This document shows positions 3,010 to 63,970 of a stretch of DNA of 64,000 nt, one piece after another. The notes under the pieces are model-generated. The model was not told the origin of the DNA and searched no databases. It saw only the letters and a program-made list of their open reading frames with translations. Numbering within the stretch: position 1 is the stretch's first letter; the number at the start of each line of letters is the position of its first letter. Origin of the DNA: Eledone cirrhosa (lineage: Eukaryota); the NCBI GenBank assembly GCA_964016885.1, contig OZ024748.1, positions 50,964,001-51,028,000 of the forward strand, in the 5' to 3' direction. The position numbers and the translations under genes are program-made.

Positions 3010-3097
<88 letters not shown>

Positions 3098-3099
<2 letters not shown>

Positions 3100-3306
3100 A
3101 AAATTTTTGACCCCAACGGCAGAGCTCAAGTCGTTTCGACGGCTGTTTCTGGACCCAGTAATTTCTTGGTCCAGAAATAGCCGTCGAAACAGCTTGAGCT
3201 CTGCCGTCAGGGTCAAACATTTTCCTATTACCCACTCTACTACCCTAAGTATTGAGTACTCTGGTGCGTTATGGTCCATCTGGTTCCTTACCACACCTAC
3301 TTCGTT
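3098..3306 (+). mobile_element. fold-back element family F1 (palindrome + tail, half-hammerhead) inserted in (TA)n
   Basis: 3098-3225 is a near-perfect inverted repeat (GGAAAA..GACCCCAACGGCAGAGCTCAAGTCGTTTCGACGGCTGTTTCTGGAC / GTCCAGAAATAGCCGTCGAAACAGCTTGAGCTCTGCCGTCAGGGTC..TTTTCC). A unique ~80-nt tail follows (TATTACCCACTCTACTACCCTAAGTATTGAGTACTC...), with (TA)n on both sides. Confidence 0.85.
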
Positions 3307-3326
3307 ATATATATATATATATATAG

Positions 3327-17522: not shown

Positions 17523-17554
<32 letters not shown>

Positions 17555-17558
<4 letters not shown>

Positions 17559-17699
17559 GAGTATGACCCCTACGGCAGAGCTCAAGCCGTTACGACGGCT
17601 ATTTCTGGACTAGTCCAGAAATAGCCGTCGAAACGGGTTGAGCTCTACTACCCTAAGTTATGCGTTATGGTCCATCTGGTTCCTTCCCACAATTCCTTT

Positions 17700-17703
<4 letters not shown>
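17555..17703 (+). mobile_element. fold-back family F1 copy (internally deleted)
   Basis: GACCCCTACGGCAGAGCTCAAGCCGTTACGACGGCTATTTCTGGACTAGTCCAGAAATAGCCGTCGAAAC plus partial tail, between (TA)n tracts. Confidence 0.8.
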
Positions 17704-17742
<39 letters not shown>

Positions 17743-23945: not shown

Positions 23946-24140
23946 GGGTGGTGGATTGACAGTATCGGTAGAGGGCCGGGTGCCATGCTTTGCACCATGG
24001 AGTTACGGGCCTTTTCAATCTGAGTTCAAATCCCGCCGAGGTTAACTTTGCCTTTCATCCTTACAGGATCGATAAATTAAAGTACCAGTAATGTACTGGG
24101 ATAATTTATGGCCTTGTGCCAAAAGTAGAAACAATTATTT
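23946..24140 (+). mobile_element. SINE family A, full length
   Basis: A and B boxes, central domain and ...GGCCTTGTGCCAAAAGTAGAAACAATTATT end. Confidence 0.85.
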
Positions 24141-24176: not shown

Positions 24177-24230
<54 letters not shown>

Positions 24231-24275
24231 TATATATAATATATAAGATCAAAAGATGGTTAAAAGAGTTCCATG

Positions 24276-24346
24276 TATTTTATTATGCGCATTTCAAAAA
24301 CAAATATCATCATGCAACAATATTTGTGTTTTCATCAGATAAAATA
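24276..24346 (-). ncRNA. complete type I hammerhead ribozyme motif (mirror copy)
   Basis: Reverse complement of 24452-24522 with all core nucleotides retained. Confidence 0.8.
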
Positions 24347-24451
24347 GGAAGACATGATATGAAGGTTAAAAAACACTTGTGAATAGTGCAGTTTTAAATC
24401 AACATATTGCACTATTCACAAGTGTTTTTTAACCTTCATATCATGTCTTCC

Positions 24452-24522
24452 TATTTTATCTGATGAAAACACAAATATTATTGCATGATGATATTTGTTT
24501 TTGAAATGCGCATAATAAAATA
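24452..24522 (+). ncRNA. complete type I hammerhead ribozyme motif
   Basis: Stem I TATTTTAT/ATAAAATA (8 bp); CTGATGA at 24460-24466; stem II AAACACAAATAT/ATATTTGTTTTT; GAAA at 24503-24506; palindromic stem III ATGCGCAT; AUA triplet at 24512-24514. Confidence 0.8.
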
Positions 24523-24670
24523 CATGGAACTCTTTTAACCATCTTTTGATCTTATATATTATGTATACTCCAGTCCTACAAACTGTAGAGTGCTTCTTAT
24601 CCGATATCTGCATTGCTTTATTGTACTACAATAAAACTCACCTCATACATATATATTTCTATTCCGTTTA

Positions 24671-24730
<60 letters not shown>

Positions 24731-24732
<2 letters not shown>

Positions 24733-24903
24733 AAAAAGGGGTTAAACTTTTTCCTATTACCCACTCTACTTCCCTAAGTATTGAGTACTCTGGTGTGTTA
24801 TGGTCCATCTGGTTCCTTAACACACCTGCTTCGTTATATATATATAGTCCAGAAATAGCCGTCGAAACGGCTTGAGCTCTGCCGTCAGGGTCATACTTTT
24901 TCC
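24731..24903 (+). mobile_element. fold-back family F1, rearranged copy
   Basis: Tail segment at 24731-24836, then TA, then the right arm GTCCAGAAATAGCCGTCGAAACGGCTTGAGCTCTGCCGTCAGGGTC. Confidence 0.8.
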
Positions 24904-24954
24904 TATATATATATATGTGTGTGTGTGTGTTTGTGTGTGCGCACGTGTATAATA

Positions 24955-25230
24955 AAGCCGAATGGCTTAGTGGTTAGAACATTGGGCATGCATTATGAAG
25001 ATTATGAGTTCGATTCTCAACCGGGTGATGTGTTGTATACTTGAGCAAGACACTTCATTTTACGCTGCTCCAGTTTCCTCAGCTGTAAAAACGACGTATG
25101 TCACTGGTGCAAATCTGTATCGATCTTTGCTTTTCTCTTGGACAACATCGATGGCGTGGAGGATGAAAACTGCATGGGTGGCTGCTAGTCTTCCACAAAC
25201 AATCTTGCCCAGACCGAAGTGTTCTTTACC
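24955..25230 (+). mobile_element. SINE family B-related copy
   Basis: TGGCTTAGTGGTTAG, GAGTTCGATTC and CTTGAGCAAGACACTT. Confidence 0.7.
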
Positions 25231-38039: not shown

Positions 38040-39650
38040 AAAGCCTGATAGTGAGATTTAAATCCTCTAAATTGAAAAAGGATGCGTATTGACGCCAATA
38101 CTCCTCCTTTTACAGCGGATCCTGTCAGAAGCAACCGTCTTCAACAGATCTCTAAGCGAGACCAGCCAAGCACATCTATGTTATCGAACCATCTCCCTCA
38201 AGGTTTACACTTGGGGCACCTATCGGTTGGTTTTGCCATCGATTCATTCCTAAGACATTCTAACCACATGTCCATAGTATCGGAGTTCTGATGTCTGAAT
38301 TCGGAGAGATAGCAGCTTTAACTGGAGTGTCTCCCTCATCTCCGAGCTACGTACTCTATTGAGTAACGTTACAAAAGAAGACATTTAGGTGGAACCCCAT
38401 TTCGGCTGTTTCTATTCGAGATCGTATTCTTTCGTTCATTATTCAAGATTCATGACCATAGGCAAGGGTTGGCCCAAATACGGAATTGAAGATAGCGAGT
38501 TTAGCTTTTACAACTACCTCCTTTCTTCTGATTACCGAACACTGTAATATGTCTTTTCAAGATCAACAAAACAAGAATATACATCTTGGCAATGTTCCCA
38601 TGATTTCTCGAATACCTGCCGCAGTGTGAATATTTGTTCGGCTGTGATGCGTCCGGGGCGAAACCGCGCTGTTCATCAGCTGGCTTGGATTCAACAATCT
38701 CCCTGCATCTCTTTGCCAGACACTTAGAATAGACCTTACCGGGGAGGCTTAACAAGGAGATCCCTCTATAATTGAAACAATCTCTCTTGTCTCCCTTTTT
38801 GAAAATTAGGATTATCACTCCCGATTATCATTGCTTAGGTCCAGGCCACTCGGTACACATGAGTCAGTCAGAGAACACCTCTATTTCATCTTCCCCAGCG
38901 GCCTTGCCACATTTGAGCTTTTTAACTGCTCATGTGACCTGAGCCATTGAGAAATTAGCCACCGCTCCCCGATGCACTTCGAGTATATCCGAAGATGCTG
39001 TTGTGATTGGGTTTAGGAGATCAGCAAAGTATTCTCTCCACCTCACGAGGATGCACGTCTCTGAAGAGAGGAGAACTCCAGACGCGTTCCTCATAGCAGG
39101 TGTAGAGAGGACTTTTATTACAAAATTGGCGAATGGACTGTCCTCTACTTTGGACGCCTTTATTGTCTCTGCTGCGATTCTTCGTGCCTGCTCTACCACA
39201 AGTGCAAGAAGGAGGGCTTATTTCCAAGCCAAGCTTTGTAGGTCACCTTCTCTGTTCGGATGGAATCTTTGGCCTTTTGATTGAATTAAGGGGCCCAACT
39301 GCCATCTGGTGCCACACCGTGCCTCTTTCTCCCGCAGCATTTAACAGCTGAAGCAGAAACTGTTGAGCTGAACAATCTCCACTCTGTCTCAATGTCCTCG
39401 GGGAGTTCTCTGAATTTGGATGCAATAGTATCTGCATACCTGGTCCCGAATTTCTTATCCACCAACGCCTCCCAATTTATCCTGTAAGTCACCCTGGATC
39501 TGCCAGTTTTTGCGGCATGAAATGGAGATTGCAATATGTTTTTCGAAAAGGTCCCTCTACCGAAGGTCTGAGCGCGTCCCTTGTTAACCCACGCGAAGGA
39601 CGATGCGGTATGGGTTTTTTTTCCTCTCACCATATTGCAGTTACAGTTTC
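38040..39650 (-). pseudogene. decayed RTE-clade LINE ORF (post-endonuclease linker, reverse transcriptase, C-terminus)
   Basis: ORF 38501-38818 reads IILIFKKGDKRDCFNYRGISLLSLPGKVYSKCL...DEQRGF (non-LTR RT domains 0-2). Upstream frames read RWREYFADLLN and IETEWRLF; the 3' part reads RWFDNI. Frameshifts and stops are present. Confidence 0.92.
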
Positions 39651-39668: not shown

Positions 39669-39718
<50 letters not shown>

Positions 39719-39720
<2 letters not shown>

Positions 39721-40065
39721 AACGAGTAGGACCGCGACGGCTGAGCTCAAGCCGTTTCGACGGCTAATTCTGGACTAAAATTCAGAATTAGCCGTCGAAA
39801 CGGCTTGAGCTCAGCCGTCGGGGTCCTACTCGTTCCTATTACCAACTCTACTACCCTAAGTATTGAGTACTTTGGTGCGTTATGGTCCGCCTGGTTCCTT
39901 ACCACTTGTCCTCCGTTATATATATCTATATATATAGGAAAATAGTCAGGGCCCCGATGGCTGAGCTCCGGCGTCGGGGTCCTGACTCTTTTCCTATTAC
40001 CCACTCTACTACCCTAAGTATTGAGTACTCTATTGCGTTATAGTTCACCTGGTATCTTACCATAC
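39719..40065 (+). mobile_element. two adjacent fold-back family F1 copies
   Basis: 39719-39836 near-perfect palindrome with tail to 39917; second, internally deleted copy at 39937-40065. Both are bounded by TA runs. Confidence 0.85.
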
Positions 40066-41426
40066 TCTCTCTGTTTTATATATATATATATATATACATA
40101 TATACACATACATGTGTGTGCGTGGTTGTGTATATGCGTGCGTATATGGTCCCACCACCACCTCACCCCACCTCCCCACCACCACCACCACTACCACCAC
40201 CACCACCACCATTTATTATCTTCCCATCATTGTTTCAATATTCCATTCTTCACTCCTTTATTTCCGATTATTTCAATTTATTTCGGTTTCATTTATTTAT
40301 TTGTTTTCTTATTTCACATGTGTTTTAATTACAATAAATTTGTCATTTCACTCCACCCCTCCACCACCATACCATACACCCCACCACCTCCACCACCATA
40401 CGATACACGCCACCACCTCTACCACCATACCATACACCCCTCCACCACCCCCTTCTCTACACAATCCCCCTCCCCCGCTCCATCCTACACCACCTCCAAT
40501 CTTTACCTCCTCCATACTTGCCTGCCCCAGATCCACCTCCACCACACCATCATATTTCACATCCTCTTCCTCCTCCTCCACACCCCTCTGCATCGGTCTC
40601 CTTCACCCCTTTCCCGATCTTAACATCCACTTTTACAACCACCTCCCCCCCACACTTCTCAACACCCTCCACCTTCATACCTACCGCTTCCATGCCTACC
40701 CCCCCCCCACAAGACATGCCCCTCCCCACACCTACAATATCGACCCCTTCTCTTCCTCCACACGATCCTTCTCTACACCCTTCTCCTTCAGCCCCAATCT
40801 TAACCTCCTCTTCAACAACCCCCTTCTCCAAGAGCCTCCGCAAACGCACCTCCGCCACACCCTCCAAATCTTTACCTCCTCCTTCCCACCCTCCAACCGA
40901 TCTTTACCTCCACACCTTCGCCTTTCAAAACGCCAACCCCTCATGTAATCACAACAGCAACGCATTACACCGCACATGCACCCTTTACACAAATACTCAT
41001 TTCATATTAACACACATACAAAACCAACATATATACATATGTTTAACCAATATAGACACAAAACATAGCACACCTATCAGAAACCACGTTAGACCAATAT
41101 ATACACACAAATATACTATTGTTATACACATATTAAACGACATACACCAAGCATGAACAATCTTTTCCGAGTAGTGGGCCGCATAGGATCTGGCTCATCA
41201 TAAGGCCGGTCATACCAGTGAACAATTAAAGGCAATTTTGAAATTAGGCGTGCCATTCAGAGAGCCAGACGGGCCGCAGTTTTCTTATGACTAATATACA
41301 CACTCAAATATATACACCAGCATATACACACAATATACACCACTAGAGAGACTAACTCACTATTTTCGGTATTATTTATCATATCTTCAACTGCTGGTTT
41401 ATTTGTGTCGTATCTATAAGGCAGCA

Positions 41427-52981: not shown

Positions 52982-53165
52982 AACGGAGGAAATGTGGTAA
53001 GGAACCAGGTGGACCATAACGTACCAAAGTACTCAATACTTAGGGTAGTAGAGTGGGTAAAAGGAACGAGTAGGACCCCGACGGCTGAGCTCAAGCCGTT
53101 TCGACGGCTAATTCTGGATTAGCCGTGGAAACGGCTTGAGCTCAGCCGTCGGGGTCCTACTCGTT

Positions 53166-53167
<2 letters not shown>
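52982..53167 (-). mobile_element. fold-back family F1 copy (tail to the left)
   Basis: Reverse complement of 39719-39917 with a shortened central spacer. Confidence 0.85.
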
Positions 53168-53202
<35 letters not shown>

Positions 53203-56471: not shown

Positions 56472-57149
56472 GAATTTATTTTTAGTATCATAATGAAACA
56501 AACGCTTTTAAGAGACTGCAGAAAAATCTTCATCAGCCTAAAGAAGCCAAACTTATAATTGTTAAATAATTTAATTACACAGATTGAAGTATATGAGAAT
56601 CCTTAATTAACAGACCTCTTAAAAGACACTGATTTCAATTTAATGCCTACAATTATATTAGGAATACGTAAATAGATACATAGGGCATCAGCATCATCAT
56701 CATTATATATATAAAGGGGAAACTTTAAAAATAATTACTCCGAGATTGTCATTACCAGTTCAACACACTCACACACGCATGCCTATATATATATATATAT
56801 ATATAGATATAGATATATATGCATGTATGTGTGCGTGTGTGTGTGTGTGTATTTGTGTGTGTATGTATTTGTGTGTGGGTGTGGGTGTGTTGGTGTGTGT
56901 GTGTGTGGGTCCAAGATGGCTGATACACGTGTTTTTTCCCAATAAAATATTTTTCCGTTCTTTCCTCTTCTCATTCTCAATCTTTCTATTTCACCTTTTA
57001 TTTCTTTTTCTAATGAAGCACTTGTGTCCGAAACTTAATGACTCGTTTCCTATTATTTTAGGCATTAAACAAATATACTTCTTCATTATATGTGTTGTTT
57101 GCTTTGTTGTCTCCGTTTACATTTTGCATATACATATATATATATATAT

Positions 57150-57336
57150 AACGAAGGAAATGTGGTAAGGAACCAGGTGGACCATAACGCACCAAAGTAC
57201 TCAATACTTAGGGTAGTAGAGTGGGTAATAGGAACGTGTAAGACCCCGACGGCTGAGCTCAAGCCGTTTCGACGGCTAATTCTGGAATTAGCCGTCGAAA
57301 CGGCTTGAGCTCAGCCGTCGGGGTCCTACTCGTTCC
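57150..57336 (-). mobile_element. fold-back family F1 copy
   Basis: Nearly identical to 52982-53167; TA flanks. Confidence 0.85.
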
Positions 57337-57887
57337 TATATATGTATATATCGTGCGCTAAGCAGCCAAAGTATACAAATAATCTATATCTGCATATATA
57401 TGGTGTTCCACAAAAATGTTTACACATATTTATTAGATTGCTGTTTAAGTGTGTATACATTTTGGGGACACCCTGTAAATATATATATATATAGATAAGG
57501 TAATCGAGACTGCGTAAATGTGTATATAAATTTACACATTGAGTATTTCACTTGCAAATGGAAAATATGATATTTTAAAATGGTTTCAACACTCTTTGTG
57601 ACCCCATCAAGAACGCTAATAATATACAAATTCATACCACTATGTCAGTAATAATATTAGAAGCGAAGTTTTATATAAGTAGTTCCTTCTGGTTGTTTAG
57701 ATGATATACATTATTTTGAGGAAAAACCCAAAAGGATTAAATATAGATTCAAAATATTTATCAATGTCTTTTTTTCTTCGCGAATTTAGTCTGTTTCTAT
57801 ATCTACATACATACTGTGTACATTTATGTAATATCTACACGGTTTTGGTTATCTCTGTACTATGTATATACATACATACATACATAC

Positions 57888-63399: not shown

Positions 63400-63970
63400 C
63401 ATACAAGGCCACGGCATAAACCAAAGTGATGGTTTAAATTATAATTTAACGCTCTGAAGATTGATATGGAGAAATGGGAGAGGCCTACGAAAAAGATAAT
63501 CGAATATAAATATGATGTCTTTCAGAAAGAGCGAGTGGGGCATGCTGCTTTGAAGCGTTCACTTCCTAAGGGGTACTCAAGTGCAGTGCCTGCAAAAATT
63601 CAGCAGTAATTGAGGTGCTATATATGTGGCCGATTTCCGGTTTTGTTAACTATCTGAAATCACAAGAGCCAGAGAGGAATCGAGCCAACTGTAAGATGGT
63701 TCTACCGTCACACATTCCACCTTACATTTGCAGTGAGTGTGGCTTAATTTACAAGTCAGCAGGTGGACTGACCAGACATGGTAAAATGCATGAAGTCACA
63801 CCTCAGCCAGTTTTGCCAGGAGACAAACAGTTCAAGTGTCACTCCTGTGAACCTACCTACAAAACAAAAGCAGGCATGAAAAATCATCTGCGTGCACATG
63901 ATCGAGCAATGTTCGATGAAGGGATGGCACACTTCTGACAAGAAGTAGCAATCGGTATGTATGTATATAT
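63400..63970 (+). pseudogene. probable RTE/BovB-like LINE 3' end with two C2H2 zinc fingers
   Basis: ORF 63615-63938 contains YICSECGLIYKSAGGLTRHGKMH and FKCHSCEPTYKTKAGMKNHLRAH. Upstream is NALKIDMEKWE (RTE-like ID...WE). There is no TGEKP linker, and an (ATGT)n tail follows the stop. Confidence 0.6.

What the first reader, a model, noticed from the sequence alone, without database searches (positions are those of the whole stretch)
24238..24674. Fold-back cassette encoding a complete hammerhead on both strands
Seen: ~153-bp near-perfect arms with a 17-nt loop, and an intact HHR in each arm (plus 24452-24522, minus 24276-24346). Stem I is 8 bp, stem III is the palindrome ATGCGCAT, and the site is AUA. 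Known: PLE insertions often have an inverted, truncated terminal repeat, and palindromic stem III hammerheads act as dimers. Inference: in either direction of transcription the antisense arm is made first, so the long hairpin competes with ribozyme folding. That gives a switch between self-cleavage and a ~150-bp dsRNA (ADAR or Dicer substrate). Near-identical arms suggest a young insertion.
Basis: partly seen in the sequence, partly recalled or inferred. Interest (0 to 1): 0.75.

Follow-up and report, generated by a model that had tools for sequence, protein, structure and literature searches.

The report
Cap-ended Penelope stub, joined head-to-head
This mirror-image stretch with a hammerhead ribozyme motif on each strand is real, but it is one of at least 2,500 near-identical short insertions left by a Penelope-type jumping gene, likely made when two DNA copies ran off the front end of one RNA and were joined, and its hairpin is predicted to lock the ribozyme shut rather than switch it.

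Summary
Observation confirmed: 160-nt arms (99%), 17-nt gap, a complete type I hammerhead motif in each arm. It is not a one-off device. The arm is the terminal repeat (pLTR) of a Hydra-like Penelope-like retrotransposon with 22,841 exact core matches and at least 2,534 short fold-backs in this genome. One arm ends at internal site A, the other about 90 nt further at site B. Arms of one insertion share subfamily variants (55 of 55), and inner ends pile up at one base, with excess untemplated C. Likely mechanism: both target strands prime reverse transcription on one capped RNA, both cDNAs run off its 5' end and are joined. The 'loop' is the first 17 nt of that RNA. Read-through RNA is predicted to bury the ribozyme by about 92-96 kcal/mol: a lock, not a switch. 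ORF-spanning copies never stop at the tip (0 of 48; 26 pass it), which hints at a second, circular template and a role for the ribozyme. The layout is published (inverted pLTR plus tail; opposite-strand hammerhead pairs), and this scan noted it before on other DNA, cap-ended stubs included.

The parts
24179..24235 (.). (TA)n target microsatellite, left flank; no target-site duplication can be read
   Evidence: TA runs flank most copies
24236..24407 (-). Arm A: pLTR copy from the tip (24407, inferred RNA +1) to internal site A (TATATATTAT)
   Evidence: one arm ends at site A in 67 of 73 head-to-head pairs typed A+B
24276..24346 (-). Type I hammerhead motif in arm A, predicted cut 24284/24283
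24391..24407 (-). The '17-nt loop': first 17 nt of the element from the tip, kept only on arm A
   Evidence: the same junction type recurs (L009, L010; many rows)
24408..24562 (+). Arm B, part shared with arm A: pLTR copy lacking its first 17 nt
24452..24522 (+). Type I hammerhead motif in arm B, predicted cut 24514/24515
24563..24650 (+). Tail (about 90 nt) between site A and site B; in tandem copies it runs on into the 5' UTR and ORF
   Evidence: (L020)
24651..24730 (.). Right flank: short TA run, 18 nt not shared with other copies, then (TA)n

Best explanation
The cassette is a short insertion of an endonuclease-bearing, Hydra-like Penelope-like retrotransposon, likely made by twin priming on one capped RNA, and it is likely inert as a ribozyme. 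Shown: family, copy number, two fixed outer ends (sites A and B), one preferred inner end (the tip), shared variants between arms, TA targets. Inferred: the GIY-YIG nuclease cuts both strands of a (TA)n target; each 3' end primes reverse transcription at one of two internal sites in the pLTR near the RNA 5' end; both cDNAs run off the capped 5' end after about 175 and 255 nt, sometimes copying the cap as an extra C or slipping; their 3' ends are joined through 0-4 nt of overlap. Here cDNA A reached the tip and cDNA B stopped 17 nt short. The hammerhead is carried along uncut. Predicted: read-through RNA forms a 155-bp duplex that buries it; RNA started at the tip would fold it, but with a 2-3 bp stem III it would need a second copy as dimer partner.
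For: Parent found: RT (YRDD), DKT, CxCX5C linker, C-terminal GIY-YIG, 808-codon open frame in L089. 22,841 core matches; 2,534 fold-backs with 195-225 nt spacing; 2,098 tip-to-tip junctions. 18-mer counts: 24,232 just before site A (35), 8,505 in the tail, 226 after site B (36), 5,227 upstream of the tip. 67 of 73 divergent pairs are one A arm plus one B arm. Within-locus arm distance is below the median between-locus distance in 55 of 55 pairs, long ones included. A tip-ended arm is never paired with an arm that passes the tip: 25 tip/tip, 16 up/up, 0 mixed; unbiased subset 10/10/0, Fisher p=1e-5. Either arm can be the longer (A longer: L050, L072, L074, L075, L079, L086; B longer: L033, L036, L038, L049). 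After the complete tip, C+notA 782 vs T+notA 628, while the sense strand has C 46 to T 98. A Poseidon PLE cuts and extends both strands from two adjacent internal sites flanking the tail, on uncut RNA (PMC11167929).
Against: No RNA data: the start site and cap are inferred from DNA junctions. The C excess is about 2.7-fold; by my hand count only 7 of 49 listed junctions carry a C that neither the genomic C nor slippage explains, 7 more are ambiguous, 18 are plain 4-nt overlaps. The tip sits in a 6-nt palindrome, so snap-back could also make the plain junctions. A few pairs have arms 7-12 mismatches apart, which may be two templates or two insertions. 18-mer counts depend on subfamily polymorphism (the tail count is 35%, not 50%, of the arm count). 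One RNA versus two sibling RNAs is not resolved. The RWK motif of Hydra reads RWI here.
Confidence: 0.75

Rival explanations
1. Self-priming or snap-back: one strand is made and folds back at the CATATG palindrome (or an antisense RNA self-primes, Arkhipova 2013), and the second arm is copied from the first.
For: Arms share variants; 18 of 49 junctions are perfect palindromes; proposed for Adineta PLEs (PMC3846280 passages).
Against: Arm A is often kilobases longer than arm B although only B has the tail, and the reverse also occurs; some junctions carry an extra C on both cDNA ends (2 of 49); both target strands prime in vitro in a related PLE.
Confidence: 0.13
2. One reading: a regulated switch between self-cleavage and long dsRNA at this locus.
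For: Geometry is as stated; the core is intact in both arms; inverted Penelope copies yield siRNA in transgenic flies (PMC3681739 passages).
Against: Hammerhead fold is 92-96 kcal/mol above the hairpin and the sense arm pairs as it is made; at least 2,534 like cassettes; the same anatomy without a hammerhead core in a second family; no gene seen in the window's open frames by eye; no A-to-G excess among rare variants (1 of 12 shared, 4 of 100 single-arm).
Confidence: 0.04
3. A non-autonomous fold-back element (MITE- or retrozyme-like) that amplifies as a whole unit from one or a few masters.
For: Narrow size mode; arm B holds tip, hammerhead and both start sites, so single-arm RNAs from cassettes could be re-copied in trans.
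Against: No fixed left-right differences, arms match within loci across subfamilies; junctions vary from locus to locus; short cassettes lie 0-7 mismatches from arms of long insertions (35 of 35); not in tandem arrays.
Confidence: 0.06
4. Assembly artefact.
For: No laid contig or read spans the whole cassette.
Against: Asymmetric loop, one internal mismatch, tail on one side only; contigs of public runs show joints from the tip (24402-24407) to varied places on the sense arm (one of these runs may be the source sample); the same junction occurs at other loci (9, 41).
Confidence: 0.02

Closest known systems
Insertion units of EN+ Penelope-like elements with inverted 5'-truncated pLTR and tail (Craig 2021 PMC8557442; Arkhipova 2013 PMC3846280)
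   Same: Head-to-head inverted copy, tail on one side only, palindromic junction, microsatellite target.
   Different: Tail is about 90 nt rather than 30-40; the shortest class has a fixed inner end and is the commonest single class here.
Hydra clade of PLEs, incl. Hydra-1_Obim (Craig 2021, section 11 and supplement)
   Same: DKT, CxCX5C linker, CxxC-E-N-CxH endonuclease, (TA)n target, hammerhead in pLTR; motifs visibly match the Hydra-1_Obim row.
   Different: Different family: its hammerhead 20-mer and N-terminus are not in that supplement; RWI for RWK; unit 3.65 kb; no tree built.
Poseidon PLE of Anolis, in vitro (Frangieh 2024 PMC11167929)
   Same: Two adjacent internal RT start sites flanking the tail, both strands cut and extended, AT-rich target, uncut RNA as template.
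   Different: Other clade; in the parts I read, inverted arms and run-off at a capped end are not explained.
Type I hammerheads of metazoan PLEs (Cervera and de la Pena 2014 PMC4209133)
   Same: Weak palindromic stem III, long stem II, dimer model, proposed circular template; opposite-strand pairs 100-700 bp apart already reported in Schistosoma.
   Different: A-U (or G-U) instead of G10.1-C11.1; 15-bp stem II, 8-bp stem I.
Non-LTR retrozymes (bioRxiv 10.64898/2026.07.22.740005, part 1 read)
   Same: Non-coding, PLE-derived, type I hammerhead.
   Different: Retrozymes are head-to-tail tandem arrays; this is head-to-head and appears to be remade at each insertion.

Membership tests
EN+ Penelope-like element | Parent with single ORF, RT plus C-terminal GIY-YIG endonuclease | tested here: met
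   (L089, 808 codons); Pfam gave no match on the RT part, 68 homologues at E<=1e-10
EN+ Penelope-like element | pLTR in partial tandem, inverted 5' copy, tail | tested here: met
Hydra clade | DKT in place of DKG | tested here: met
   54 of 68 homologues DK[TS], 1 DKG
Hydra clade | CxCX5C linker | tested here: met
Hydra clade | CxxC and CxH around conserved E and N in the endonuclease, no CCHH | tested here: met
   (L089, L033, L079, L086), read by eye
Hydra clade | (TA)n target and hammerhead in pLTR | tested here: met
Hydra clade | N-terminal RWK motif | tested here: not met
   RWI in L036, L088, L089; 26 of 68 homologues have RWK. Hence filed as Hydra-like
Hydra clade | Placement in the Hydra clade on an RT tree | not tested
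   no reference set held as stored sequence
Type I hammerhead ribozyme | Core CUGAnGA, GAAA, UH with helices I-III | tested here: met
   core intact in 92 of 103 arms not chosen on the core; 8 of 8 common stem variants keep pairing (chance 0.008 if independent)
Type I hammerhead ribozyme | G10.1-C11.1 closing pair of stem II (typical, not universal) | tested here: not met
   A-U in 93, G-U in 8 of 103
Type I hammerhead ribozyme | Self-cleavage | not testable with these tools
   needs in vitro assay
Non-LTR retrozyme | Head-to-tail tandem units each with a hammerhead | tested here: not met
   divergent pairs
MITE / fold-back DNA transposon | Fixed terminal inverted repeats moved as a unit by a transposase | tested here: not met
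   parent is an RT element, ends asymmetric, junctions variable

The most novel reading that the evidence does not exclude
The family is a fossil record of two templates: capped linear RNA gives dead twin strong-stop cassettes like this one, while hammerhead-cut and re-ligated circular RNA gives the long, more-than-unit, replicative insertions. This would explain the inverted pLTR, the all-or-none pairing of arm lengths, the absence of any second stop at the tip (0 of 48 ORF-spanning copies, 26 pass it), the absence of ends at the cut site (267 matches, about 1% of arms) and the selection on the ribozyme fold, and would give the PLE hammerhead its in vivo role.
Probability: 0.35. Interest if true: 0.65.

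Novelty: new member of a known kind. Interest (0 to 1): 0.3.

Why it matters
The locus itself is ordinary transposon debris. The family matters in two ways. How PLEs make inverted repeats and what their hammerheads do are named as open questions in PMC8557442 and PMC11167929; tens of thousands of young arms with single-base ends give sharp, testable predictions (a capped start at the tip, RT starts at sites A and B, a circle joined at the AUA site). And thousands of 155-bp perfect hairpins are a potential large pool of dsRNA for ADAR or Dicer wherever they lie in introns, which was not tested here.

Tried and rejected
Rfam: no match at gathering score in the window; at E up to 10 only sub-threshold miRNA-type hits on the hairpin, no hammerhead family. 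Pfam: nothing for the 679-aa RT part. Sequencing runs: no RNA holder listed; the laid runs are DNA or of unknown kind and collapse many copies, so their A>G/T>C rows are paralogue differences, not editing. ADAR footprint in rare variants: none. Cut-site ends as a hot spot: rejected (267 matches; 1 of 48 ORF-spanning copies starts at the cut; none among the 73 pairs). A cluster of 5' ends at -258/-264 was mostly an alignment break between subfamilies. Naiad membership, my first guess from the N-terminal motif: rejected, the endonuclease is C-terminal. Host gene: none recognised among 131 open frames of 100 aa or more, by eye; small exons would be missed. Literature searches listed no paper on twin priming or cap run-off in PLEs, nor on this family; subscription journals and bioRxiv supplements are not covered. 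Sequence look-up in earlier findings gave nothing.

Full report
Observation. The inverted repeat is at 24231-24390 / 24408-24567, 160 nt, 99% complementary, 17 nt apart, and folds as one hairpin, z = -33. These are the only two such motifs my regex found in the 64 kb. Rfam does not call them, the isolated motif folds no better than shuffles, and pair 10.1-11.1 is A-U. Support that it is a selected structure comes from the family: in 103 arms not chosen on the core, the core is intact in 92 and all 8 common stem variants keep pairing (chance 0.008 if the changes were independent; none is a two-sided change).

What it is. The arm is the terminal repeat of a high-copy element: 22,841 exact matches of a 24-nt core word, best other copies 98-99% identical. 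[quoted passage not shown] These match the description of the Hydra clade of Penelope-like elements, except RWI for RWK and a longer unit (PMC8557442 section 11), so I file it as an EN+ PLE, Hydra-like. It is not Hydra-1_Obim. The host is probably an octopod (inference: best named protein hit is from Argonauta).

The fold-back is the family's normal footprint. Of the first 100 listed core matches, 36 lie in divergent pairs within 400 bp (my count), and a pattern for both cores 195-225 nt apart gives 2,534 loci. In 73 head-to-head pairs, 67 are one arm ending at site A (24562 here) and one ending about 90 nt further at site B. Word counts follow this: 24,232 just before A, 8,505 in the tail, 226 beyond B (polymorphism lowers each count by an unknown share). 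A second family in the same window has the same anatomy, a tail of similar length and no hammerhead core in the cassette (two regex hits in 30 loci, read as flank sequence), so the hairpin is not built around a ribozyme.

How it was made. (1) Arms of one insertion are closer to each other than to the median other arm in 55 of 55 pairs, also when kilobases apart: one source per insertion. (2) Either arm can be the longer although only B has the tail, which a simple snap-back cannot give; two separately primed cDNAs can. (3) Inner ends pile up at the A of TC|ATATG: word counts drop from about 24,000 to 5,227 across it, 2,098 loci are tip-to-tip, and contigs of public runs show joints from this tip to varied places on the sense arm. 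(4) A tip-ended arm never pairs with an arm that passes the tip: 25 tip/tip, 16 up/up, 0 mixed; the other 26 of 67 have an arm cut short below the tip; p = 1e-5 in the unbiased subset. (5) The base after a complete tip is C more often than T (782 vs 628, next base not A) though the sense strand has half as many C as T; 7 of 49 listed junctions carry a C not explained by genome or slippage, 7 are ambiguous, 18 are plain overlaps (hand count). That reverse transcriptases copy the cap as C, and L1 twin priming, are recalled, not read here. Together this fits twin priming at two internal sites on one capped RNA with run-off at its 5' end. In vitro, an Anolis PLE cuts and extends both strands from two adjacent sites that flank the tail and uses uncut RNA (PMC11167929, parts 1-2 of 4 read). 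Penelope has an internal promoter in its pLTR (PMC2377424 passages). In this copy the 'loop' is RNA +1 to +17, reached by cDNA A and missed by cDNA B.

What the ribozyme does here. In read-through RNA from either side the hammerhead-compatible fold costs 92-96 kcal/mol and the sense arm pairs as it emerges: predicted off. In RNA started at the tip it costs about 3 kcal/mol, 5-6 with monomer stem III; only the left arm keeps the start. The palindrome can pair between two molecules, the dimer mode known for PLE hammerheads, which cleave weakly in vitro (PMC4209133, parts 1-2 of 4). Cut RNA ends are not copied into the genome at any notable rate: 267 matches with a non-A before the 3' product, about 1% of arms and near the mutation background (3 of 103 not A).

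A lead on the family. Among 48 placed ORF-spanning copies (49 examined; 42 from 40 loci taken in list order, 7 from earlier loci), none ends at the tip, 26 pass it, 22 end below it, one at the cut site. A linear RNA from the tip predicts a pile-up there; a jump at the tip predicts a second pile-up. No same-strand full tandems appear among the first 100 of 226 listed 5' UTR matches. A circular monomer ligated at the hammerhead site, proposed in PMC4209133, fits all of this; read-through transcripts of partial tandems or insertion into an existing pLTR are not excluded.

Comparison and verdict. Inverted pLTR plus tail is described (PMC8557442 passages; PMC3846280 passages, which favours self-priming), opposite-strand hammerhead pairs 100-700 bp apart are described, and siRNA from inverted Penelope copies is described (PMC3681739 passages). 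Earlier notes of this scan reached the same filing on other DNA, one with cap-ended stubs; my cap and twin-priming reading was noted before that look-up. Arm identity at this locus is typical (1 internal mismatch; median 1 of 55): a recent family, not a special copy. No A-to-G excess in rare variants. Expression, editing and cleavage are untested. New member of a known kind; interest 0.3, carried by the family-level record of mechanism and not by this locus.

Noticed in passing
window 3093-3317, 17549-17715, 39714-40086, 53062-53172, 57139-57341: A second high-copy family (2,099 candidates) with the same head-to-head arms, a tail of about 90 nt on one side, a preferred tip and (TA)n targets, but no hammerhead core in the cassette; parent not identified.
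   Followed up: partly
window 24729-24908: A permuted copy of that second family right beside the finding: tail first, then a TA run, then the arm, all on one strand.
   Followed up: no
G000:C1:53125156, 55959954, 56027194, 116894003; L002: Short reiterations of the first 8-20 nt of the element at the tip, as from repeated realignment of the cDNA end at the RNA 5' end, telomerase-like.
   Followed up: no
L089 (G000:C1:12249050-12258900), minus strand: Apparently intact 808-codon ORF in a partial tandem with more than 689 nt of upstream repeat.
   Followed up: partly
L106 and L112: Insertions in which both divergent arms are longer than one unit.
   Followed up: partly
window 24563-24650: Tail holds two small predicted hairpins (5 and 8 bp) between sites A and B, candidates for RT binding; conservation not tested.
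   Followed up: no
window 28267 to about 30900: Tandem array of a 161-bp unit with strong strand skew, about 93% identity.
   Followed up: no
window 23985-24140 and 24950-25220: SINE-like interspersed repeats (label recalled); the first has very high depth.
   Followed up: no
window 63570-63938 minus, 38501-38824 minus: Frames with C2H2 zinc-finger-like and RT-like motifs seen by eye, probably LINE remnants.
   Followed up: no
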